This document shows positions 12,519 through 23,458 of a DNA stretch of 26,450 nt, one piece after another. Within the stretch, counting starts at the first letter, position 1. The number at the start of each line of letters is the position of its first letter. The translations under genes and the position numbers were made by a program. The notes under the pieces are model-generated. The model searched no databases. It was not told the DNA's origin and saw only the letters and a program-made list of their open reading frames with translations. Source of the stretch: an uncultured Zetaproteobacteria bacterium (GTDB taxonomy: Bacteria; Pseudomonadota; Zetaproteobacteria; Mariprofundales; Mariprofundaceae). The DNA lies in the NCBI GenBank assembly GCA_964509005.1, contig CAZDWG010000002.1:1-26450 (forward strand), read 5' to 3'.

Positions 12519-12902
12519 ATGAGAAAAATATTATTGATGGCAGGTGCGCTTGCTTTGGTGTTTACCGTACTGCCGGTATCCAGTGCCCATGCGAGTCCGG
12601 AATCAAAATGTAAGGTATGTCACAATTTCTCAGCTAAAAATAAAGTTGGCCCTGGATTGAAGGGGGTTTTCGGCAGAAAGGCTGGCATGCATCCTGGATT
12701 CAGGTATAAGTTCACGAAGTATATCAAGAAGGGAGGCGGCTGGACGTGGGATGAGGCGCACCTGCGCAAGTGGATACTGAACAGCAAGAAGGCGGTCAAG
12801 GAATTTACCGGCAACAAGAGGGCTAAAACCAAGATGCCGCCACAGCATATGAAAGGTGCCAAGGCCGATGCAATCATTGCATTCTTGAAGGGCTTGAAGT
12901 AA
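12519..12902 (+). CDS. Periplasmic class I (c2-like) monoheme cytochrome c
   Basis: Signal peptide ending AHA; CKVCH; KVGPGLKGVFGRKAG; TKMP Met ligand; GGAGG RBS. Confidence 0.93.
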   Translation: MRKILLMAGALALVFTVLPVSSAHASPESKCKVCHNFSAKNKVGPGLKGVFGRKAGMHPGFRYKFTKYIKKGGGWTWDEAHLRKWILNSKKAVKEFTGNKRAKTKMPPQHMKGAKADAIIAFLKGLK

Positions 12903-12931: not shown

Positions 12932-13687
12932 ATGAACGAAGGAATTAAACACTATACTGTACATTGGCATACCAGTCCGTTCCCCATGATGGTGGGATTC
13001 GGTGCGGGTCTATTTTTACCATGGGCTTTTATGCTGCAATTCAACTATACGCAGCCAACCGCCGCGCTGGTTTGTCTGGCTATCGGCGTTGCATTAACCA
13101 TTGCCGGAGGTCTTGGCTGGGCGGGTGAAACGATTGGCGTGATCGACGATGAAGGTTGGGCTCCGTCGGCTATGTTAATGTTTATTGGCACCGAGATTAT
13201 GACCATCGCTGCCATATTGGCTGGCTACTGGGTTGTCCGCTTGGGCGCGACGGTATGGCCGCCCGCCGGCACGCCGAAAATTGATGCCTTAGAGCCTCTC
13301 ATTGCAACCCTTATTCTGATTGCTTCCAGTATCACGATTGGTTTTGCGCGCAAGCGGGAGATTGATGGAGATGCGTCCGGTTTTGTTAAGATGGTATTGC
13401 TGTCCGCTGCGATCTGGGTGGTTTTCATGGTGATGCTCATTTCCAATTGGAGCCATCTGGCAAGTGAGGGCTTTAACATCGGCACGAATGGCTACTCAAC
13501 CGTGCTTTACGGACTTACGGGTATCCATTTTGCTCATGTGGTGATTGGTCTGCTGGTAATGTTGGCCTGCCTGCCGAGCGCCTTTAAGGGCAGGCTGAGC
13601 TTTTCCTACACCCGCGCCATGACCATGTATGTCCACTTCGTCAATGTGCTCGGTCTCTGGGTGCTGTTCCAGGTCTATTACATTTAA
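12932..13687 (+). CDS. coxC: Cytochrome c oxidase subunit III
   Basis: Seven TM segments; HTSPFP, GTE, WPPAGTP and LTGIHFAHV motifs; YVHFVN (canonical YWHFVD). Confidence 0.88.
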   Translation: MNEGIKHYTVHWHTSPFPMMVGFGAGLFLPWAFMLQFNYTQPTAALVCLAIGVALTIAGGLGWAGETIGVIDDEGWAPSAMLMFIGTEIMTIAAILAGYWVVRLGATVWPPAGTPKIDALEPLIATLILIASSITIGFARKREIDGDASGFVKMVLLSAAIWVVFMVMLISNWSHLASEGFNIGTNGYSTVLYGLTGIHFAHVVIGLLVMLACLPSAFKGRLSFSYTRAMTMYVHFVNVLGLWVLFQVYYI

Positions 13688-14623
13688 GTGCGGGCGATTT
13701 TGGCTATGCGATATTCGTTCCTGCCTTCCCTGCGGCACATAGGCATGTTGCGGCGGGACTGGTTTCGGCTAGTTCTGGCTCTGGCCTGCCTGTTTGCGAT
13801 ATTGGGGACTGGAGTGCTCATGTTTCCCGGGACTGCCCAAGCCTCCTATAAATCAACGATGATGGCTCCGACGTCGGAGATTGATCCAGAGGTTTTCCGT
13901 ATCAACGAGGGACATTTTCTGGGTGGAAAGGTTGATGGGAGTTATATACTTCAGGATGCATCCGGGAACAGCTTCAAGCTTGGCGACATGTTTGGCAAAC
14001 CGCTGGTTCTGGTGCTCTCCTACTTTACCTGTGATGGTGCTTGTCCGGTGGTCAACCGTAGGCTAGCCAATACCCTGAAGGGGGTGAATCGCTGGAAACT
14101 TGGTAAGGACTACAATGTCCTGACTGTTTCGTTTGATCGGCATGATACGCCGACAACGATGCGAGCCTTTATGCACGAGATGGGTTTCGGCCAGTTGCCG
14201 AAGGGATGGCGCATGGCAACCATGCGGAACCGGAAGGATATTGACCGGCTTGCCGGTTCAATCGGTTTCAAGTTTTTCTGGTCGCCAAGGGATCGTATTT
14301 TCCTGCATTCGATGGTTTACACTGTGCTTTCGCCCAAGGGCCAGATCGCGCGCTATCTCTATGTTGGGAAAGCGGATTCGTATGATTTTGGTCTGGCGAT
14401 TACCGAAGCCATGGGCGGGGAGATTTCCCCGGCGAACATCATGGATTATGTGGTGGCCGCCTGTCACAGCTACTCCTACAAGGATGGAAAATACAAGCTC
14501 AATATTCCCCTGTTCGTGATGTTTGGCGCGCTTGCGGCTGGAGTGGTGCTGATGGTCGGAGGATTTATGATTGCAAAACGCAAGAGAAAGAGACTCGATA
14601 AGGGTATGATTACTGCGGTATAA
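13688..14623 (+). CDS. SCO1/SenC-family copper chaperone (caa3-cluster type, C-terminal TM)
   Basis: YFTCDGACP CxxxC motif; LTVSFD; FLHS His ligand; ACHSYSYKDGKY followed by a TM helix. Start codon uncertain (GTG 13688 or a later ATG). Confidence 0.85.
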   Translation: MRAILAMRYSFLPSLRHIGMLRRDWFRLVLALACLFAILGTGVLMFPGTAQASYKSTMMAPTSEIDPEVFRINEGHFLGGKVDGSYILQDASGNSFKLGDMFGKPLVLVLSYFTCDGACPVVNRRLANTLKGVNRWKLGKDYNVLTVSFDRHDTPTTMRAFMHEMGFGQLPKGWRMATMRNRKDIDRLAGSIGFKFFWSPRDRIFLHSMVYTVLSPKGQIARYLYVGKADSYDFGLAITEAMGGEISPANIMDYVVAACHSYSYKDGKYKLNIPLFVMFGALAAGVVLMVGGFMIAKRKRKRLDKGMITAV

Positions 14624-14664: not shown

Positions 14665-15477
14665 ATGAAAATGAAATCGTTCGTGTATAAGGTGCTGGGA
14701 GCGCTGCTTGCACTGCCTTTGATTCCTACGCTGGTCTATGCATTTCAGATGCAGACAGCGACCAGGAATAATTATGGGGGCTTGACGCCACAGGCTCACT
14801 GGGAGCAGGTGTGGACAGAGGTGATGTGGGACATCACCGTTATCGGCGCGATTTACTTTGTCGTGTCCTTATTCTTTCTATTTAAATACAGGAGGAAAAG
14901 CCATGCTCAGGTTGGCAAATCGCCTAAACTTTCCGCGCAGGCTCTGCTCGGCTGGGTCATCATTCCCTGCATGTTGTTCCTGGGGGATGACCTGTTCCTG
15001 TATGTCAAGGCCTTTGCGCTACACGATCAGATGCGCGAAGTGCCTGCCGATGCCCGGACCATCAAGGTAACCGCCTCCATGTGGAACTGGAATTACGATT
15101 ACGGCAATGGCGTGGACACGGACATGGTGTTGCGCGTGCCGGTTGGAAAGCCGGTCATCTTTCGCATGACCAGTGACGATGTTATCCATTCCCATTATCT
15201 GGATGGTTACCACGAGACCGAGGATGTGATGCCGGGCCGTGTGACCTGGGAATGGTTCATGCCGGTCAAGCTTGGCACGTCGGTGATTACCTGCCGTGAA
15301 TACTGCGGTGCGAATCACTCCAAGATGTACGCCAAGCTTATCGTGATGAAACAGGCCGATTACGATGCCTGGATGACGAAGGCCAAGGCCGAGTCGAAAG
15401 CCGATTCGGGCCATCAGCTTGCCATGACCACTAAAGCAGAGATAACAAGCAACAGGAATAAAGGAGGAAAGCTATGA
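14665..15477 (+). CDS. coxB: Cytochrome c oxidase subunit II (CuA, no fused heme c)
   Basis: Signal peptide, two TM helices, DVIHS and CREYCGANHSKM CuA ligands; ATGA overlap with coxA. Confidence 0.93.
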   Translation: MKMKSFVYKVLGALLALPLIPTLVYAFQMQTATRNNYGGLTPQAHWEQVWTEVMWDITVIGAIYFVVSLFFLFKYRRKSHAQVGKSPKLSAQALLGWVIIPCMLFLGDDLFLYVKAFALHDQMREVPADARTIKVTASMWNWNYDYGNGVDTDMVLRVPVGKPVIFRMTSDDVIHSHYLDGYHETEDVMPGRVTWEWFMPVKLGTSVITCREYCGANHSKMYAKLIVMKQADYDAWMTKAKAESKADSGHQLAMTTKAEITSNRNKGGKL

Positions 15478-17156
15478 CTGGTGAAACATTTATGGGTTTT
15501 GTAGGACATGAGCCAAACGGCAAGCCCGGTTGGCCGAAAACAGCCAAGGAGTGGTTGTTCACGCTTGACCACAAGGTCATTGGCATCTGGTATCTGATCG
15601 GCGCTCTTGCAGCTTTTGCTGTGGCTGGTATTTGTGCCATGTTGATGCGTATCCAACTGGGCAGCCTCGGCCCGACTCTCACTGGCGATGGTAACGTCTA
15701 TAACCTGTGGCTGACCATGCATGGGGCGGTGATGATTCTGGGATTCCAGATTCCGGCATTGCTGGGTTTTGTTGCCAACTATGCCGTACCCATGATGATC
15801 GGGGCCAAGGATATGGCCTTTCCGCGCGTCAATGCGTTGAGCGTATGGTTGTTGTGGTCGGGTATTCTTCTGGCCTTGGCCAATCTGGTGATCCCCGATC
15901 ACTTCAACGGTATGTGGACCGGTTATCCGCCGTATTCCGAGACGTCTATGGCGGGTAATACGGCACTGTATTCATCGGTGGTCGTTGTGCTGGGCATGGC
16001 ATCCGTATTCGGTGCGGTGAATCTGGCCTGTACGGTGGCCTTCATGCGCTGTAAGGGTATGGGTTGGTTTCAGATGCCGATGACCTGCTGGGGCGTGTTC
16101 ACGGCCAATATCATCCAGTTGATCTTTGTGCCAGTACTGGCTGCTTCGGTGTTGCTGCTGTCAATGGACAAGTATCTGGGCTTCGGCTTCTATAATCCGG
16201 ATTTGGGTGGTGACGTGCTGCTGTATCAGAACCTGTTCTGGTTCTATTCGCATCCGGCCGTGTATGTGATTTTACTGCCGTTCGTGGGGCTCATTTTCGA
16301 GATATTCTCGGTGTCATCTAAAAACATGGTCTTCAGCTACAAAGCGACGGTCTTTGCCGTGCTGGCTTTTATTCCGGCTAGCGCCGATGTCTGGGCGCAT
16401 CATGCCTTCGTAGCGGGTTTGCCGGGTTGGTTCAATTTGCTGATGTCGTTCACCTCGCTGCTGATTTCATTGCCCTTTGGCCTGTTGATGCTCAGTATGG
16501 TGGGTACGCTATACAAGGGTGCTATCCACTATTCCGGTCCGATGATCTGGGCTCTGGGTGCCTGGGTGATGCTTATTTTAGGCGGTTTGACCGGCATTCC
16601 AAACGCCCTCGCCGCCGTGGACTACGGCATCTCGGATTCCTACGCCATCATGAGTCACTTTCACTATGTCATGGCGATAGCCGGCACCATGGCCACCTTT
16701 GGAGCTATATTCTACTGGTTCCCGAAGATGACCGGGCGCGTATGCAACGAAATGCTGACTAAGCTCTCGGGCATTGGTTTCTTTATCGGCATGAATGTGG
16801 TAATGGCACCGCTGTATATCGCCGGTGTCGCGGGTATGCCGCGCCGCTATATGGATTATCAACAGTTTGCCAATAATGCCACCATCGTTGATGCGCAGCA
16901 CATCGCCACGATGGGTGCCTATATCACTTTCGTCAGTGTGTTACTGACGCTGGTGGCGTGGATTCACGGCATGCTCAAGGGTGAGAAGTCATCGCAGAAC
17001 CCTTGGGGATCACAATCGCTGGAATGGACGTCTACCGCGCTTGTTGCCGGGCAAGGTAATTTCCCGACTCCGGTGGAGGTTGCCAAAGACTGGCATCCGT
17101 ACAACTACATCAACAATCCGAAGCCGACGTTCCAGCCTCACCCGGCGGAGGGCTAA
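15474..17156 (+). CDS. coxA: Heme-copper oxidase subunit I, family A type A2 (YSHPAVY), K-channel residues absent
   Basis: All six His ligands (TMHG, H260 in YSHPAVY, H309/H310 in VWAHH, H395/H397 in HFH), cross-link Tyr264, GMPRRY, and D-channel D113 in GAKDMAFPRVN. Confidence 0.93.
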   Translation: MTGETFMGFVGHEPNGKPGWPKTAKEWLFTLDHKVIGIWYLIGALAAFAVAGICAMLMRIQLGSLGPTLTGDGNVYNLWLTMHGAVMILGFQIPALLGFVANYAVPMMIGAKDMAFPRVNALSVWLLWSGILLALANLVIPDHFNGMWTGYPPYSETSMAGNTALYSSVVVVLGMASVFGAVNLACTVAFMRCKGMGWFQMPMTCWGVFTANIIQLIFVPVLAASVLLLSMDKYLGFGFYNPDLGGDVLLYQNLFWFYSHPAVYVILLPFVGLIFEIFSVSSKNMVFSYKATVFAVLAFIPASADVWAHHAFVAGLPGWFNLLMSFTSLLISLPFGLLMLSMVGTLYKGAIHYSGPMIWALGAWVMLILGGLTGIPNALAAVDYGISDSYAIMSHFHYVMAIAGTMATFGAIFYWFPKMTGRVCNEMLTKLSGIGFFIGMNVVMAPLYIAGVAGMPRRYMDYQQFANNATIVDAQHIATMGAYITFVSVLLTLVAWIHGMLKGEKSSQNPWGSQSLEWTSTALVAGQGNFPTPVEVAKDWHPYNYINNPKPTFQPHPAEG

Positions 17157-17328: not shown

Positions 17329-18240
17329 ATGCGAGAAGAATTGCTGAAAATGAAACATACCTCAATTGGTGAAGGCTACCGAACGAAGGCTGCTTCCGCT
17401 GAATTGTTCGAGTTGGCGAAACCCGGCATTGTCGGTTTGACGCTGGTGGCCGCATTGACGGGGGTTTATTTTGGTAATCATGGTGTGATGCCGCACTGGA
17501 ATCTCATCTTCTGGACCTTTCTGACACTGGGGCTGGCAACAGCCGGATCCTGCATGCTTAACAACTATTATGACCGCGACATAGATCAGTTGATGCGCCG
17601 TACCAAATCACGGGTGCTGGCTGCGGGGTTGGTCTCCGAACGGGTCGTACTGTATGTAGGGCTGCTATTGGTGATTCTACCGCTTGCCTTGATGGCTTGG
17701 AGGGTCAATCCGTTAGCTGCTTTGGTTACGGCAGTCGGCGTGATTGGCTACGTTGGTGTTTATACCATGTGGATGAAACGCACAACGCCGTGGGCCAATC
17801 AGTTCGGTGGTATTGCCGGTGCTGTACCTCCAATGGTTGGTTACGCTGCGGTAACGGGCGATCTAGGTGCTCCAGCATGGGTTTTGTTTGCTATTATGGT
17901 GATCTGGCAACAGCCGCATGCCTTGAGTCTGGCATTGAAATATCGTGAGGATTATGCCCGCGCCAATGTGCCGGTCATTCCCGTGGCCTGCGGCGTGCAG
18001 GCGACAAAAGTGCGCATCGCTGTGTATGCGCTTGCCTTGATTCCCGTGGCCATGCTGCCCTATGTGTTCGATATGGCAGGCATCTGGTATCTGGTAATTT
18101 CTGGATTGTTGAGTTCCATGTTCCTGTTCATGGCCGTGCGTTTTCTGCGTTCGGAACGGGATTGCGACATGCGCGTGTTCGCCTTTTCCATCGTGTATCT
18201 GATTCTTTTGTTTGGTGCGATGGTGATTGACTCGATATAA
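17329..18240 (+). CDS. ctaB: Protoheme IX farnesyltransferase (heme O synthase)
   Basis: ELAKPGIV, NNYYDRDIDQLMRRTKSR, YTMWMKRTTPW..GG.AGA.PP, WQQPH..SLA; GGAGG RBS. Confidence 0.95.
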   Translation: MREELLKMKHTSIGEGYRTKAASAELFELAKPGIVGLTLVAALTGVYFGNHGVMPHWNLIFWTFLTLGLATAGSCMLNNYYDRDIDQLMRRTKSRVLAAGLVSERVVLYVGLLLVILPLALMAWRVNPLAALVTAVGVIGYVGVYTMWMKRTTPWANQFGGIAGAVPPMVGYAAVTGDLGAPAWVLFAIMVIWQQPHALSLALKYREDYARANVPVIPVACGVQATKVRIAVYALALIPVAMLPYVFDMAGIWYLVISGLLSSMFLFMAVRFLRSERDCDMRVFAFSIVYLILLFGAMVIDSI

Positions 18241-21038: not shown

Positions 21039-22427
21039 ATGACAACAAAATATTCACTTCCGCTTGACGATGAGCCACAGACCAGGCTTGCAGCCGCCTG
21101 GTTATGCGTTGCGGTGGGTTTCCTGCTGGCTTCCGGTATTTATCCGCTTTTATTAGCATTGGCGCGTACTACTTATGCCATGCCATGGGATGATTTTTTC
21201 TATACTGCCCTGGTGCTGCACGTCGATTTCACCGTATTGTGGTGGTTGCTTGCCATCGCAGGGGTCTTCTGGAGCCTGAATTCAACCGACCGCGCGGCGC
21301 CATCCGGGTGGATTGCGCTGACGTTGGTCGTGGTCGGCGGGGTCCTGACCGCTATTTCACCACTCACCAATGCCGCCAACCCGTTGACCAATAATTACGT
21401 GCCTATACTGGAGAACCATTATTTTATTAAGGGTATGATCGTATTTGGTGGCGGTATTTTACTGTTAGTACTGGGCACGCTCTACGCCGCTCCGATGCGA
21501 GCCATATTCACGCCGAATCGTGAAGGAGCAATGCGCTTCGGCATCTGGACTGCCGCGATTGCCACGTTGATTGCCATACTGGCCCTGATTTGGGCTCTGA
21601 TTCACATGCCTTCAGGGTTGGAGCACCGGGCTTATTATGAACCCCTGTTCTGGGCTAGCGGTCATGTGATTCAGTTCGCGCATACGGCGTTGCTGTGTGT
21701 CTGCTGGTTGTGGCTTGCAAGCGCCTGCGGCACTGGGATTTCCATCAGGCCCAGCCTGGTGATGGCCGTGTTCGCCATCAGTGTCATCCCGCTGCTATTT
21801 GTCTTCATGCCCTTTGCGCAATATGGCGTGAATACACCAGGTTTTACGCTGTGGTTTGTAAAGCTGATGCGCGACGGCAACGGTATTGCACCGCTGGTCA
21901 TCGGTCTGGCGGTTATGTGGGGCCTCGTCAGGAGCGGGGCACCGACGAAGGATCAGCGACACCTGTATCTGGCATTGTTGTTCTCGATGGTTCTGTTTGC
22001 CACGGGTGGTATTCTGGGGCTGTATATTAGCACAAGCAGTACGCTGATCACGGCCCATTATCACGGTGTGATTGTCTCGGTGACCATGGCTTTTATGGCC
22101 ATGACCTATTTCTGGTTGCCACGATTCGGGTTTACCACGCCCAATCTGAAATGGGCCAGGATTCAGGTCTGTGTCTATGCTTCGGGGCAGATGATCCACA
22201 TCATCGGCCTGGCCTGGGGCGGGGGGTATGGCATGAAACGCAAGGTGGTTGGTACCGCTCAGGATATTGGCGTCCACACGTGGGTTACGCCGCAGGATCT
22301 GGTCGGTTTTGGCGGCGTAATCGCCGTGCTCGGCGGAATTTTATTCGCAATCGTAGTGTTGCCCGTCATGTTTAAGGGGCGCAACAGAAAGGGAAACGAT
22401 GAAAAGCATTGCGAGGGGGAGTTATGA
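21039..22427 (+). CDS. Heme-copper oxidase subunit I-fold protein lacking the CuB His-His pair and cross-link Tyr
   Basis: R43 after TM1, VLH61VD, YEPLFWASGH209VIQF, TAH340YH342G, GMKRKV; no HH in the helix VII region. Confidence 0.75.
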   Translation: MTTKYSLPLDDEPQTRLAAAWLCVAVGFLLASGIYPLLLALARTTYAMPWDDFFYTALVLHVDFTVLWWLLAIAGVFWSLNSTDRAAPSGWIALTLVVVGGVLTAISPLTNAANPLTNNYVPILENHYFIKGMIVFGGGILLLVLGTLYAAPMRAIFTPNREGAMRFGIWTAAIATLIAILALIWALIHMPSGLEHRAYYEPLFWASGHVIQFAHTALLCVCWLWLASACGTGISIRPSLVMAVFAISVIPLLFVFMPFAQYGVNTPGFTLWFVKLMRDGNGIAPLVIGLAVMWGLVRSGAPTKDQRHLYLALLFSMVLFATGGILGLYISTSSTLITAHYHGVIVSVTMAFMAMTYFWLPRFGFTTPNLKWARIQVCVYASGQMIHIIGLAWGGGYGMKRKVVGTAQDIGVHTWVTPQDLVGFGGVIAVLGGILFAIVVLPVMFKGRNRKGNDEKHCEGEL

Positions 22428-23458
22428 ACAGTATTGAAACCCGTAATGACAGGCAAATCGCCATTTGGTTGCTATGCGTCTGCGCCGCGATTTTTGTGAT
22501 GCTGGTGGTGGGCGGTGCGACCCGGCTAACGCACTCGGGACTTTCAATGGTGCAATGGAACCCCTTGATGGGCTGGATTCCGCCACTTTCCGAATCTCAA
22601 TGGATGAACTCATTCGGGCATTACCAACAGACACCGGAGTTCTATAAATTGAATCCGAATATGAACCTGGCGGGCTATAAGGGAATTTTTCTGCTGGAAT
22701 ACATCCACCGCGTGTGGGGGCGTTTGATCGGGTTTATTTTCCTGCTCCCCTTTCTTTATTTTCTGGTGGTTGGAAAGGTCAGACGAGAATTGCGTCCCAG
22801 ACTGATCATCATGTTTGTCCTTGGCGGTTTACAGGGGTTGCTCGGTTGGTACATGGTCAAAAGTGGTCTGGTGGATAACCCGCATGTCAGCCAGTACCGG
22901 CTTACGGCTCACCTGACAATGGCTTTCATCATTTATGGCTTTATTTTCTGGGTAGCTATGGGGCTCCTGCTCCCACGCACGGATGTCGCACTGGAAGATG
23001 TCACACCCTTACGACGCCTTGCGCTGGCGCTCACGGGCTTGATTGCCGTAACCGTGATGGCCGGTGGTTTTGTGGCGGGCTTGAGGGCGGGCTTCGCCTA
23101 TAACACGTTTCCGTTGATGAACGGTCATTTCATCCCTGAAGGTTATGCCATGCTCAGACCCTTCTATCTCAACTTCTTTGGGAATATTGCCGCAGTTCAA
23201 TTCGATCACCGCCTGCTGGCTGAAACAACGGTGTCATGCGTTGCCGTGCTGTGGTGGTATGCCCGGCGCTTTGATCTCTCAAAGCGGGCCAGTCTGGCCT
23301 TCAACCTGCTGCTTACAGCGGTACTGATCCAGTTTTTACTGGGGGTATCCACGCTACTTCTGGTCGTTCCTGTCTGGTTGGGTGTGACACACCAGGCGGG
23401 TGCCATGCTTCTCTTCACAGCTACGTTATTTACCAATTACACACTGCGCCGGAGTTGA
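22424..23458 (+). CDS. ctaA: Heme A synthase, type 2 (Cox15-like)
   Basis: GGATRLTHSGLSM..W.P, EYIHR..GR, LQGLLGWYMVKSGL, RLTAHL, FDHR, THQAGA. ATG 22424 forms an ATGA overlap with the upstream stop. Confidence 0.95.
   Translation: MNSIETRNDRQIAIWLLCVCAAIFVMLVVGGATRLTHSGLSMVQWNPLMGWIPPLSESQWMNSFGHYQQTPEFYKLNPNMNLAGYKGIFLLEYIHRVWGRLIGFIFLLPFLYFLVVGKVRRELRPRLIIMFVLGGLQGLLGWYMVKSGLVDNPHVSQYRLTAHLTMAFIIYGFIFWVAMGLLLPRTDVALEDVTPLRRLALALTGLIAVTVMAGGFVAGLRAGFAYNTFPLMNGHFIPEGYAMLRPFYLNFFGNIAAVQFDHRLLAETTVSCVAVLWWYARRFDLSKRASLAFNLLLTAVLIQFLLGVSTLLLVVPVWLGVTHQAGAMLLFTATLFTNYTLRRS

What the first reader, a model, noticed from the sequence alone, without database searches (positions are those of the whole stretch)
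14665..17156. A2-type cytochrome c oxidase with the entire K-channel plugged, in both subunits
Seen: CoxA aligns without gaps to the P. denitrificans numbering at +16 from H260 onward (H260=H276, Y264=Y280, H309/310=H325/326, H395/397=H411/413). In that register the K-channel residues are K354->L338, T351->F335 ('PFGLL' for 'PTGxK') and S291->F275. In CoxB, the K-channel entry Glu (LExxW) is L94 ('ALLGW'). The D-channel (Y in IGIWY, N in ANY, D113, N in PRVN, S/N in SVFGAVN) and the A2 YS motif are intact. Established: in model A-family oxidases the K-channel Lys is required for normal turnover. Inference: four coordinated polar-to-hydrophobic changes across two genes look like selection rather than decay, implying a D-channel-only oxidase or altered chemistry/stoichiometry. 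Such variants may already be noted in phylogenomic surveys of oxidases with this III-SCO-II-I gene order; I cannot check that here.
Basis: partly seen in the sequence, partly recalled or inferred. Interest (0 to 1): 0.82.

Follow-up and report, generated by a model that had tools for sequence, protein, structure and literature searches.

The report
Known K-channel-less A2 cytochrome oxidase
This iron-oxidising marine bacterium carries an intact oxygen-reducing cytochrome c oxidase whose textbook "K" proton channel is filled with greasy residues in both subunits. This is the fixed, already tabulated signature of a widespread oxidase lineage that relatives use as their only oxidase, so the enzyme works, but how it gets its protons has never been tested.

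Summary
CoxA (15474-17156) has F275, F335 and L338 at the positions of P. denitrificans S291, T351 and K354. CoxB (14665-15477) has L94 at the position of the entry Glu E78. The six His ligands, the HPAVY Tyr, the A2 Tyr-Ser motif, the D-channel and the CuA site are intact.

These changes are not private to this gene. All 120 nearest CoxA homologues, all 80 species-representative genome loci and all 105 clade CoxB lack these residues. The clade is monophyletic, keeps the gene order III-SCO-II-I(-CtaB), and is under purifying selection (dN/dS about 0.12).

It is the published "A2 subtype CyoCAB" lineage. A supplementary table of Degli Esposti et al. 2021 lists Mariprofundus micogutta COX1 with the same F/L/F pattern. 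This scan has also met the clade before on other DNA (e1-5096967).

"Selection, not decay" is supported. "D-channel-only" remains untested. Two closed Zetaproteobacterial genomes hold this oxidase as their only catalytic oxygen reductase, so it must work.

The clade also gained conserved polar residues: D/E305 one turn below a CuB His, S332, and N/S288. I infer a rebuilt proton route along helix VII. This is a new member of a known kind, of moderate interest.

The parts
12519..12902 (+). Periplasmic monohaem cytochrome c (127 aa, signal peptide, CKVCH), the likely electron donor
   Evidence: Pfam PF00034. It matches the 127-aa single-CXXCH cytochrome that Chiu et al. 2017 describe near the aa3 genes of strain CP-8. 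It is conserved upstream in L006 and L007.
12932..13687 (+). Oxidase subunit III (CoxC, 251 aa)
   Evidence: Pfam PF00510. It is the first gene of the conserved III-SCO-II-I order.
13688..14623 (+). SCO1/SenC copper chaperone (311 aa)
   Evidence: Pfam PF02630. Its GTG start directly follows the subunit III stop.
14665..15477 (+). Subunit II (CoxB, 270 aa) with an intact CuA site and no cytochrome c domain
   Evidence: Pfam PF00116. CuA ligands are H175 and C210-x3-C214-x3-H218-x2-M221. dN/dS is 0.19-0.22.
14944..14946 (+). CoxB L94, at the position of the K-channel entry Glu (P. denitrificans E78)
   Evidence: Alignment to 1AR1_B. E is found in 0/105 clade CoxB and 15/15 canonical COX2. The Mariprofundus closed genomes have Lys here.
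14986..14991 (+). CoxB D108-D109, a clade-invariant Asp pair in the P-side third of TM helix 2
   Evidence: Present in 105/105 clade CoxB and 0/15 canonical COX2. It lies in model helix 91-124. Its role is unknown.
15474..17156 (+). Subunit I (CoxA, 560 aa), A2-type; its start overlaps the coxB stop (ATGA)
   Evidence: Pfam PF00115, E = 3e-116. Best solved relative is 2YEV_A, E = 4e-103. AF2 pLDDT is 92.9. dN/dS is 0.11-0.13.
16245..16265 (+). Y258-S259 (A2 motif), H260 (CuB ligand) and Y264 (cross-link Tyr) on helix VI
   Evidence: 'FWFYSHPAVY' is invariant in 121 clade sequences.
16296..16301 (+). F275 (S291 position) and E276
   Evidence: Position 275 is Ser in 95% of canonical sequences and F/Y/M/A in the clade. 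Position 276 is E or D in 100% of the clade.
16335..16337 (+). S288 at the N-side start of helix VII, equivalent to CcoN S240 of the C-family KC-channel
   Evidence: The clade has N 90%, S 7%, Q 2%; canonical sequences have G 97%. The mapping rests and the BLASTP alignment to this genome's CcoN-like protein.
16386..16388 (+). D305, a buried carboxylate on helix VII four residues before the CuB ligand H309
   Evidence: D or E in 112/121 clade proteins and 71/80 genome loci, and in 0/87 canonical and 0/150 representative A-family proteins.
16467..16487 (+). Helix VIII S332-L-P-F335-G-L-L338, in place of A-x-P-T-G-x-K
   Evidence: S332 is in 120/121 clade proteins (canonical Ala 89%). Position 335 is V/F and position 338 is L/M/F/V throughout the clade.
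17329..18240 (+). Haem O synthase (CtaB, 303 aa)
   Evidence: Pfam PF01040. It follows CoxA in most clade loci.
22409..23458 (+). Haem A synthase (CtaA), which makes an aa3-type haem complement plausible
   Evidence: NCBIfam NF045570, E = 3e-84.

Best explanation
What it is (shown). This is an intact cytochrome c:O2 oxidoreductase operon (cytochrome c, subunit III, SCO, subunit II, subunit I, CtaB) of a Mariprofundaceae-like Zetaproteobacterium. It belongs to the published 'A2 subtype CyoCAB' lineage of A-family haem-copper oxidases. In that lineage the canonical K-pathway side chains are replaced. In subunit I these are S291, T351, K354, the flanking W358 and the N-side K/R after helix VI; in subunit II it is E78. 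The D-channel, the Tyr-Ser motif, all metal ligands and the His-Tyr cofactor are kept.

That it works (inferred from genomes and physiology). It is a working, energy-conserving O2 reductase. Close orthologues are the only catalytic haem-copper oxidase, with no cytochrome bd, in two closed Zetaproteobacterial genomes. Those genomes match the obligately Fe(II)-oxidising microaerophiles M. ferrinatatus CP-8 and M. aestuarium CP-5.

How it works (inference, not shown). The Lys-based route along helices VI and VIII was not simply plugged. It was exchanged on the clade's stem for a different arrangement. A buried carboxylate (D/E305, helix VII) and Ser332 (helix VIII) sit one helical turn to the N side of the CuB level. 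That is the same depth and the same inward face as the catalytic Tyr264. They would be fed from the N side along a slimmed helix VII rich in Gly, Ala and Ser, whose entrance is marked by N/S288. This resembles the helix-VII 'KC' channel of cbb3 oxidases. D/E305 would act as the local proton donor and charge compensator when the haem a3-CuB centre is reduced, which is the job of K354 in canonical enzymes. The D-channel would serve the oxidative phase and pumping as usual.
For: Identity and register. Clade-wide loss of K/T/S/E. Published table row for M. micogutta (Y, F, L, F; KC positions N, T, S, S; COX2 K; class 'KC-channel'). M. micogutta COX1 is P0027, 75% identical and in the same clade with SH-aLRT 100. 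Synteny III-SCO-II-I in about 75 of 80 loci from Zeta-, Beta-, Gammaproteobacteria, Magnetococcia, Nitrospinota, Nitrospirota and Thermodesulfobacteriota. Purifying selection. Sole oxidase: the closed genomes G002 (2.3 Mb) and G011 (2.5 Mb) have only this CoxA ('SLPFGLLML', 'SSDVWVHH') plus a CuB-less COX1-like gene. They have no CcoN-type hit, which is found in G004-G006, and no cytochrome bd. Chiu et al. 2017 report that CP-8 (2.30 Mb) and CP-5 (2.54 Mb) are closed genomes with aa3-type but no cbb3-type oxidase, and are obligate Fe(II) oxidisers growing at below 2 uM O2. Remodelling: D/E305 in 93% of the clade and 0% elsewhere; S332 99% against Ala; N288 against Gly; F304 replaced by G/A/S; acid at 276 in 100%. 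All these switch together between the clade and its K-bearing sister P0246. Eight of the 9 clade members without an acid at 305 carry Tyr at 275, the residue B-family enzymes use in their K-analogue, which hints that the two are alternatives in one pathway. The helix VII positions align with CcoN S240, H247 and Y255.
Against: No coordinates could be inspected, so the proximity of D305, S332 and Y264 rests on helical periodicity. It also rests on my recollection that R. sphaeroides T352 (= T328 here) hydrogen-bonds a CuB His. Between N/S288 and D305 the 'KC' positions are not firmly polar: position 292 is T/V/A, 295 is G/A/S and 303 is S/G/A. In this protein they read S, T, A, S. A stretch of roughly 10-12 A, my estimate from helix rise, therefore has no conserved protonatable side chain and would need bound water. 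Nine of 80 genome loci lack the acid at 305. D/E305 could instead tune or ligate CuB. No biochemical data exist for any member.
Confidence: 0.45

Rival explanations
1. D-channel-only oxidase. The K region is truly closed and all eight protons per O2 (chemical and pumped) enter through the D-channel. D/E305 and S332 would have a structural or redox-tuning role only.
For: The D-channel residues and the Tyr-Ser motif are 100% invariant in 121 sequences. All canonical K positions are hydrophobic. The COX2 entry position is unconstrained, varying over A, V, K, S, R and M, as expected if no proton enters there. There is no continuous conserved polar chain from the N side to D305. Degli Esposti et al. 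2020 proposed the same for other K-less A2-type enzymes.
Against: In model A-family enzymes, K-pathway mutants cannot reduce the binuclear centre at useful rates although their D-channel is intact (established knowledge; the K362M structure appears). This reading does not explain why a buried carboxylate, a Ser and small residues appear near the Tyr exactly when the Lys is lost.
Confidence: 0.3
2. Lower-stoichiometry oxidase. The protons normally carried by the K-channel come from the periplasmic side, or pumping is reduced, trading efficiency for driving force at very low O2. The P-side polar residues (CoxB D108-D109; CoxA R321, Q/M324, T328, S332) would form that access route.
For: The clade lives mostly in gradient microaerophiles, and CP strains grow at below 2 uM O2. 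The invariant membrane-embedded Asp pair lies in the P-side third of CoxB TM2. The Mg/Mn-site His is not conserved, which suggests a remodelled P side.
Against: Position 324 is only about half polar. No connection between these residues has been shown. An Fe(II) oxidiser with a small energy budget would lose charge separation. This is pure inference.
Confidence: 0.1
3. Altered chemistry. The enzyme is mainly an NO reductase or another non-O2 reductase, with D/E305 acting as a fourth ligand that converts CuB into an FeB-like site.
For: [DE]-x3-H on one helix is a common metal-chelating spacing (general knowledge). The clade occurs in denitrifiers such as Sulfuritalea, Accumulibacter and Ca. Nitricoxidireducens. 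An earlier scan note (e1-4388880) suggested sNOR-like features.
Against: The cross-link Tyr is invariant. Murali et al. 2024 treat loss of that Tyr as the mark of NO reductases and place sNOR next to the B-family. The D-channel is retained. Relatives appear to respire O2 with this enzyme alone.
Confidence: 0.04
4. Decaying or non-functional gene.
For: None beyond the missing canonical residues.
Against: The frames are intact, all ligands are present, the genes are translationally coupled, dN/dS is 0.11-0.22, and the pattern is conserved across phyla.
Confidence: 0.01

Closest known systems
'A2 subtype CyoCAB' haem-copper oxidases (Degli Esposti et al. 2019, PMC6431628; 2021, PMC8239418, Suppl. 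Table S1 and table for Fig. S7), e.g. Mariprofundus micogutta COX1 WP_083530385
   Same: Gene order III-(SCO)-II-I, the A2 Tyr-Ser motif, and S291=F, K354=L, T351=F. The protein is 75% identical and sits in the same strongly supported clade. COX2 lacks the entry Glu.
   Different: This genus has a hydrophobic residue (L/V/I/M) at the COX2 E78 position where M. micogutta has Lys. It has Ser instead of Asn at 288 and Ala at one 'KC' position. The papers do not list D/E305, S332 or the CoxB Asp pair among their channel columns.
Thermus thermophilus caa3 oxidase (PDB 2YEV), the structural reference for A2-type enzymes
   Same: Best solved relative (E = 4e-103; model rmsd 1.6 A). It shares the YSHP motif, the D-channel and a Glu at position 276.
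   Different: caa3 keeps T325 and K328, has a cytochrome c domain on subunit II and a fused I+III polypeptide, and has Met rather than an acid at position 305.
K-less aa3 oxidases of acidophilic Fe(II) oxidisers (Acidithiobacillus, Acidiferrobacter rus-operon COX) and the Ferrigenium straubiae COX (coxBA11C)
   Same: They are A-family enzymes in iron oxidisers with K354 and COX2 E78 replaced by non-ionisable residues and the D-channel kept. Their function was likewise noted as unclear.
   Different: They form different lineages. The acidophile enzymes have HPEVY, two extra N-terminal helices and T351 retained. Their gene orders differ, and A1-like K-less groups branch apart in my tree. The loss is therefore independent.
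C-family (cbb3) KC proton channel along helix VII
   Same: There is no Lys, polar or small residues run along helix VII, and a single-residue match to CcoN S240 (N/S288) lies at the entrance.
   Different: In cbb3 the cross-linked Tyr itself sits on helix VII and there is no D-channel. Here the Tyr stays on helix VI, position 303 is Ser, and a carboxylate at 305 has no cbb3 counterpart (Trp in the CcoN sequence as I recall it; Thr in this genome's CcoN-like protein).
R. sphaeroides K362M and P. denitrificans K354M laboratory mutants
   Same: A hydrophobic residue sits at the Lys position.
   Different: The mutants are nearly inactive, whereas this natural enzyme carries about ten co-ordinated changes around the site and supports growth in relatives.

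Membership tests
A-family haem-copper oxygen reductase, type A2 | Six metal-ligand His and the HPxVY cross-link Tyr | tested here: met
   H83, H260, H309, H310, H395, H397 and Y264 are present and invariant in the clade.
A-family haem-copper oxygen reductase, type A2 | D-channel residues, with Tyr-Ser replacing the helix VI Glu | tested here: met
   Y40, N102, D113, N120, S123, S177, N183 and Y258-S259 are invariant in 121 sequences.
A-family haem-copper oxygen reductase, type A2 | Canonical K-channel (K354, T351, S291, Tyr-I; COX2 E78), as defined in Sousa et al. 2011 | tested here: not met
   The residues are L338, F335, F275 and CoxB L94; only Tyr-I is kept.
A-family haem-copper oxygen reductase, type A2 | CuA-bearing subunit II | tested here: met
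   H175, C210, C214, H218 and M221 are present.
A2 subtype CyoCAB (Degli Esposti et al.) | Operon order subunit III-(SCO)-II-I | tested here: met
   the same order holds in about 75 of 80 related loci.
A2 subtype CyoCAB (Degli Esposti et al.) | COX1 groups with listed members (M. micogutta, Sulfuritalea, Magnetococcales-type) | tested here: met
   P0027 (M. micogutta) is 75% identical. The clade has SH-aLRT 100, on a quick LG+G4 tree only. Sulfuritalea and Magnetococcales loci are in the same hit set.
A2 subtype CyoCAB (Degli Esposti et al.) | K-channel pattern classed as 'KC', 'hybrid' or 'modified' | tested here: met
   Y, F, L, F, S, E at the K columns is identical to the M. micogutta row. 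The KC columns read S, T, A, S and the COX2 residue is L.
C-family-like KC proton channel (works-like claim) | Conserved protonatable residues at the positions of CcoN S240, S244, H247 and Y255 | tested here: inconclusive
   Only position 288 is firmly polar across the clade. Positions 292, 295 and 303 vary among T/V/A, G/A/S and S/G/A.
B-family K-channel analogue | Ser, Thr and Tyr at the T351, K354 and S291 positions | tested here: not met
   The residues are F335, L338 and F275. Tyr at 275 occurs in only about a quarter of the clade.
sNOR and other haem-copper NO reductases | Loss of the cross-link Tyr; relatedness to the B- or C-family | tested here: not met
   Y264 is invariant, and the best matches are A-family at E = 1e-103 against ba3 at 1e-6 to 1e-8.
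Working O2 reductase | Measured O2 turnover, H+/e- ratio and expression | not testable with these tools
   The only evidence is indirect: it is the sole catalytic oxidase in two closed relatives' genomes.

The most novel reading that the evidence does not exclude
An A-family proton pump has replaced its Lys-based K-pathway with a carboxylate-terminated route. D/E305 and Ser332 sit beside the His-Tyr cofactor and are fed along a Gly/Ser-rich helix VII. This would be a third, independently evolved solution for supplying the reductive-phase protons, partly convergent with cbb3 oxidases and characteristic of microaerophiles from at least four phyla. D/E305, S332 and the CoxB Asp pair are not among the channel residues tabulated in the literature I could read.
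Probability: 0.35. Interest if true: 0.6.

Novelty: new member of a known kind. Interest (0 to 1): 0.35.

Why it matters
The K-pathway Lys is textbook-essential in A-family oxidases. Yet a lineage found in Zetaproteobacteria, Gallionellaceae-like Betaproteobacteria, Magnetococcales, Nitrospinota, Nitrospirota and Thermodesulfobacteriota does without it, and at least two cultured iron oxidisers appear to respire with nothing else. The lineage is therefore a natural experiment on what the K-pathway is for: charge compensation, proton delivery or gating. It also bears on O2 affinities and H+/e- yields, which are currently assigned to 'aa3-type' genes in models of microaerophilic iron oxidation by analogy with canonical enzymes. 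This particular window adds one more member and no new principle. Its value is to point at D/E305, S332, N/S288 and the CoxB Asp pair as the residues to mutate.

Tried and rejected
No reads were laid.

(2) The search of 50%-identity representatives returned no representative of the clade itself. The best hit was a K-bearing A2 enzyme at 44% identity. The search therefore served only as an outgroup sample.

(3) Residue-level structural superposition was not possible. The model and Foldseek tools return scores only, so I could not measure the D305-Y264-S332 distances or look for cavities.

(4) I considered sNOR/NOR membership, which an earlier scan note suggested, and rejected it. The Tyr and the D-channel are kept, and the affinity is with the A-family.

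(5) I first mapped S332 onto ba3 S309. I rejected this after checking that the published equivalence is S309 = T351 and T312 = K354.

The distant relatives whose COX2 carries a cytochrome c domain keep the Glu.

(7) Literature searches for expression data on a clade member (Zetaproteobacteria mats, Sideroxydans) found data only for cbb3.

(8) Pairwise BLASTP against this genome's CcoN-like protein is weak (E = 0.02). I used it only as an anchor for the helix VII register.
Full report
**The locus.** The window is contig C2 of a 1.69-Mb, 85%-complete metagenome-assembled genome. The nearest named relatives of its oxidase are Mariprofundus and other Zetaproteobacteria. On the plus strand lies a tight gene string. 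It runs: monohaem cytochrome c (12519-12902), subunit III (12932-13687), SCO1/SenC (13688-14623), subunit II CoxB (14665-15477), subunit I CoxA (15474-17156, start overlapping the coxB stop) and haem O synthase CtaB (17329-18240). A haem A synthase lies 5 kb downstream.

**Check of the observation.** The gap-free phmmer alignment to T. thermophilus caa3 (2YEV_A, E = 4e-103) places T325 and K328 of 'PTGVK' on F335 and L338 of 'PFGLL'. The alignment to P. denitrificans subunit II places 'IEVIW' on 'ALLGW', so E78 corresponds to L94. S291 corresponds to F275 in the same +16 register, which is fixed by H260, H309/H310 and H395/H397. An AlphaFold2 model built on 70 sequences (pLDDT 92.9, pTM 0.92) superposes on P. 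denitrificans aa3 (7ATE_A, 1AR1_A) at 1.7-1.8 A rmsd. It superposes on 2YEV_A at 1.6 A over more than 520 columns. That leaves no room for a register shift, although the tools give no residue-by-residue structural alignment. The D-channel residues, the A2 Tyr-Ser motif, the His-Tyr site and the CuA site are all intact.

**The pattern is a clade trait.** All 120 best CoxA homologues, at 51-90% identity, read 'IS-x-P-[VF]-G-L-[LMFV]', with no Lys and no Thr. They come from Zetaproteobacteria, Nitrospinota, Thermodesulfobacteriota, Magnetococcales and Beta- and Gammaproteobacteria.

- In one genome per species, all 80 related loci are K-less.
- All 105 CoxB relatives lack the entry Glu. Position 94 is A, V, K, S, R, M, I or L. 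The 15 canonical COX2 sequences picked up at the bottom of the same search all have Glu there.
- The gene order III-SCO-II-I, usually followed by CtaB, holds in about 75 of the 80 loci.
- On a quick maximum-likelihood tree (LG+G4, SH-aLRT only, unrooted) the K-less sequences form one clade with support 100. Its sister, P0246, is a Tyr-Ser enzyme with a canonical T/K/S/W set (support 99). For any root outside the clade, the Lys was therefore lost on the stem.
- Several other, unrelated K-less A-family groups appear on the same tree.
- dN/dS against the nearest relatives, at dS about 0.5, is 0.11-0.13 for CoxA and 0.19-0.22 for CoxB.

**Prior art.** Degli Esposti et al. 2019 (PMC6431628) named an 'A2 type, subtype CyoCAB' operon with SCO genes. 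The supplement of Degli Esposti et al. [quoted passage not shown]

Its residue table has a row for Mariprofundus micogutta COX1. The row reads Y280=Y, S291=F, K354=L, T351=F, S357=S, E292=E. It gives N, T, S, S at the positions of the C-family 'KC' channel and COX2 E78=K, and its class is 'KC-channel'. That protein is P0027, 75% identical to this CoxA.

The same group's 2020 preprint had already said that some A2-type enzymes lack a functional K-channel in both COX1 and COX2 while keeping the D-channel. A 2026 preprint says the same of the Ferrigenium straubiae oxidase and calls the meaning unclear. This scan had also reached the same conclusion on another genome (e1-5096967). I checked the papers it cited myself.

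**Does the enzyme work?** Of 121 Zetaproteobacterial genomes sampled, 32 hold this CoxA. Two of them, G002 (2.3 Mb) and G011 (2.5 Mb), are single-contig genomes.

- Their only PF00115 hits are the K-less CoxA ('SLPFGLLML', 'SSDVWVHH') and a weak CuB-less COX1-like gene 8 kb away.
- They have no CcoN-type hit, whereas G004-G006 have an extra strong 479-502-aa PF00115 hit that I take to be CcoN. They have no cytochrome bd.
- Chiu et al. 2017 describe exactly such organisms. M. ferrinatatus CP-8 (2.30 Mb) and M. aestuarium CP-5 (2.54 Mb) were then the only closed Zetaproteobacterial genomes. They have aa3-type but no cbb3-type oxidase, are obligate autotrophic Fe(II) oxidisers growing at below 2 uM O2, and have a 127-aa monohaem cytochrome c next to the oxidase genes in CP-8.

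If it holds, a K-less oxidase of this clade sustains aerobic lithotrophic growth by itself.

**What replaced the K-pathway?** I compared 121 clade sequences with 87 canonical (T/S, K) A-family representatives.

Lost in the clade:
- S291 (now F/Y/M/A), T351 (now V/F) and K354 (now L/M/F/V).
- The flanking Trp (97% in canonical sequences, now L/M).
- The K/R after helix VI (98% in canonical sequences, now Asn).
- The Mg/Mn-site His.

Gained in the clade:
- D or E at 305 (93% against 0%).
- Ser at 332 (99% against Ala 89%).
- Asn or Ser at 288 (against Gly 97%).
- Small residues at 304 (against Phe 78%).
- An acid at 276 in 100%.

The sister P0246 has the canonical state at every one of these positions, so they switched together. 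None of the 150 representatives outside the clade has an acid at 305.

**Where the new residues sit (inference).** D305 lies four residues before the CuB ligand H309 on helix VII. Y264 lies four residues after the CuB ligand H260 on the antiparallel helix VI. S332 lies four residues after T328, which corresponds to R. sphaeroides T352; from memory, that Thr hydrogen-bonds a CuB His. All three therefore sit one turn to the N side of CuB on the inward faces of three neighbouring helices, which is the top of the K-pathway. The model has helix VII as 289-297 plus 299-314 and helix VIII as 318-329 plus 332-346, consistent with this. This is inference from periodicity, not a measured distance.

**The helix VII positions.** The 'KC' positions of the published table map to 288, 292, 295 and 303. 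This follows and from the alignment to this genome's own CcoN-like protein. Here they read S, T, A, S. Across the clade only 288 is firmly polar. The others vary among T/V/A, G/A/S and S/G/A, so a helix VII route would have to rely on bound water. Eight of the nine clade members without an acid at 305 have Tyr at 275, the residue the B-family uses in its K-analogue. That hints at alternative solutions within one pathway, although it reflects only two or three independent events.

**My reading.** The enzyme is a working O2 reductase of a known lineage. Its Lys-based pathway was most likely exchanged for a carboxylate-terminated one, not simply blocked (0.45). A D-channel-only enzyme remains a serious rival (0.3). 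The other rivals are a lower-stoichiometry enzyme with P-side access (0.1), altered chemistry such as NO reduction (0.04) and decay (0.01).

**Verdict.** This is a new member of a known kind. The open question, how these oxidases take up protons, is real but already posed in the literature. Interest is moderate (0.35).

Noticed in passing
window 14986-14991 (CoxB D108-D109): An Asp-Asp pair inside TM helix 2 of subunit II, in the context F105-x-[GA]-D-D-[LF]-x-L112, is present in 105/105 clade CoxB and absent from 15/15 canonical COX2. The model places it about 17 residues into helix 91-124, in the P-side third. Its function is unknown.
   Followed up: partly
window 16632-16634 (CoxA S387): The Mg/Mn-site His (P. 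denitrificans H403) is Ser here. It is variable in the clade (S 72, H 15, Q 12, A 11 of 121), while the adjacent Asp is mostly kept.
   Followed up: partly
window 21039-23458; also L094-L097, and L013, L015, L017-L019: A 462-aa COX1-fold protein that matches PF00115 only weakly, followed by haem A synthase, recurs near this oxidase operon in other Zetaproteobacteria. It lies about 8 kb from CoxA in both closed genomes.
   Followed up: partly
G000 contig C24:2114-3526 (L002:1393-2805, minus strand): The genome's second haem-copper subunit I (470 aa) matches ccoN at only 217 bits against a cut-off of 583, so it is a divergent C-family-like protein. Its helix VII reads 'FYSTPAAHH'.
   Followed up: no
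CoxA position 275 across clade proteins P0068, P0079, P0087, P0104, P0112, P0116, P0117, P0122: Clade members that lack the acid at 305 almost always (8 of 9) have Tyr at the S291 position, against roughly one in five of the others. This may be a compensatory pairing, but it rests on only two or three independent events.
   Followed up: partly
P0029, P0032, P0036, P0044, P0045 and others: Public records name many clade CoxA proteins 'cbb3-type cytochrome c oxidase subunit I'. This CoxA scores 490 bits on TIGR02891 (CtaD_CoxA), below its 670.75 cut-off. I suspect that is why the annotation pipeline falls back on a misleading generic name.
   Followed up: partly
G049:C9:3679-5346 and G083:C113:20436-22085: Two related genomes show a single in-frame TAA inside their CoxA match. 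This could be a sequencing error or a recently broken copy.
   Followed up: no
P0248 (449 aa, 41% identical): A relative in the representative library reads 'IWLIYVF' where the helix VII His-His pair should be, so it may be a ligand-less derivative of this oxidase type.
   Followed up: no
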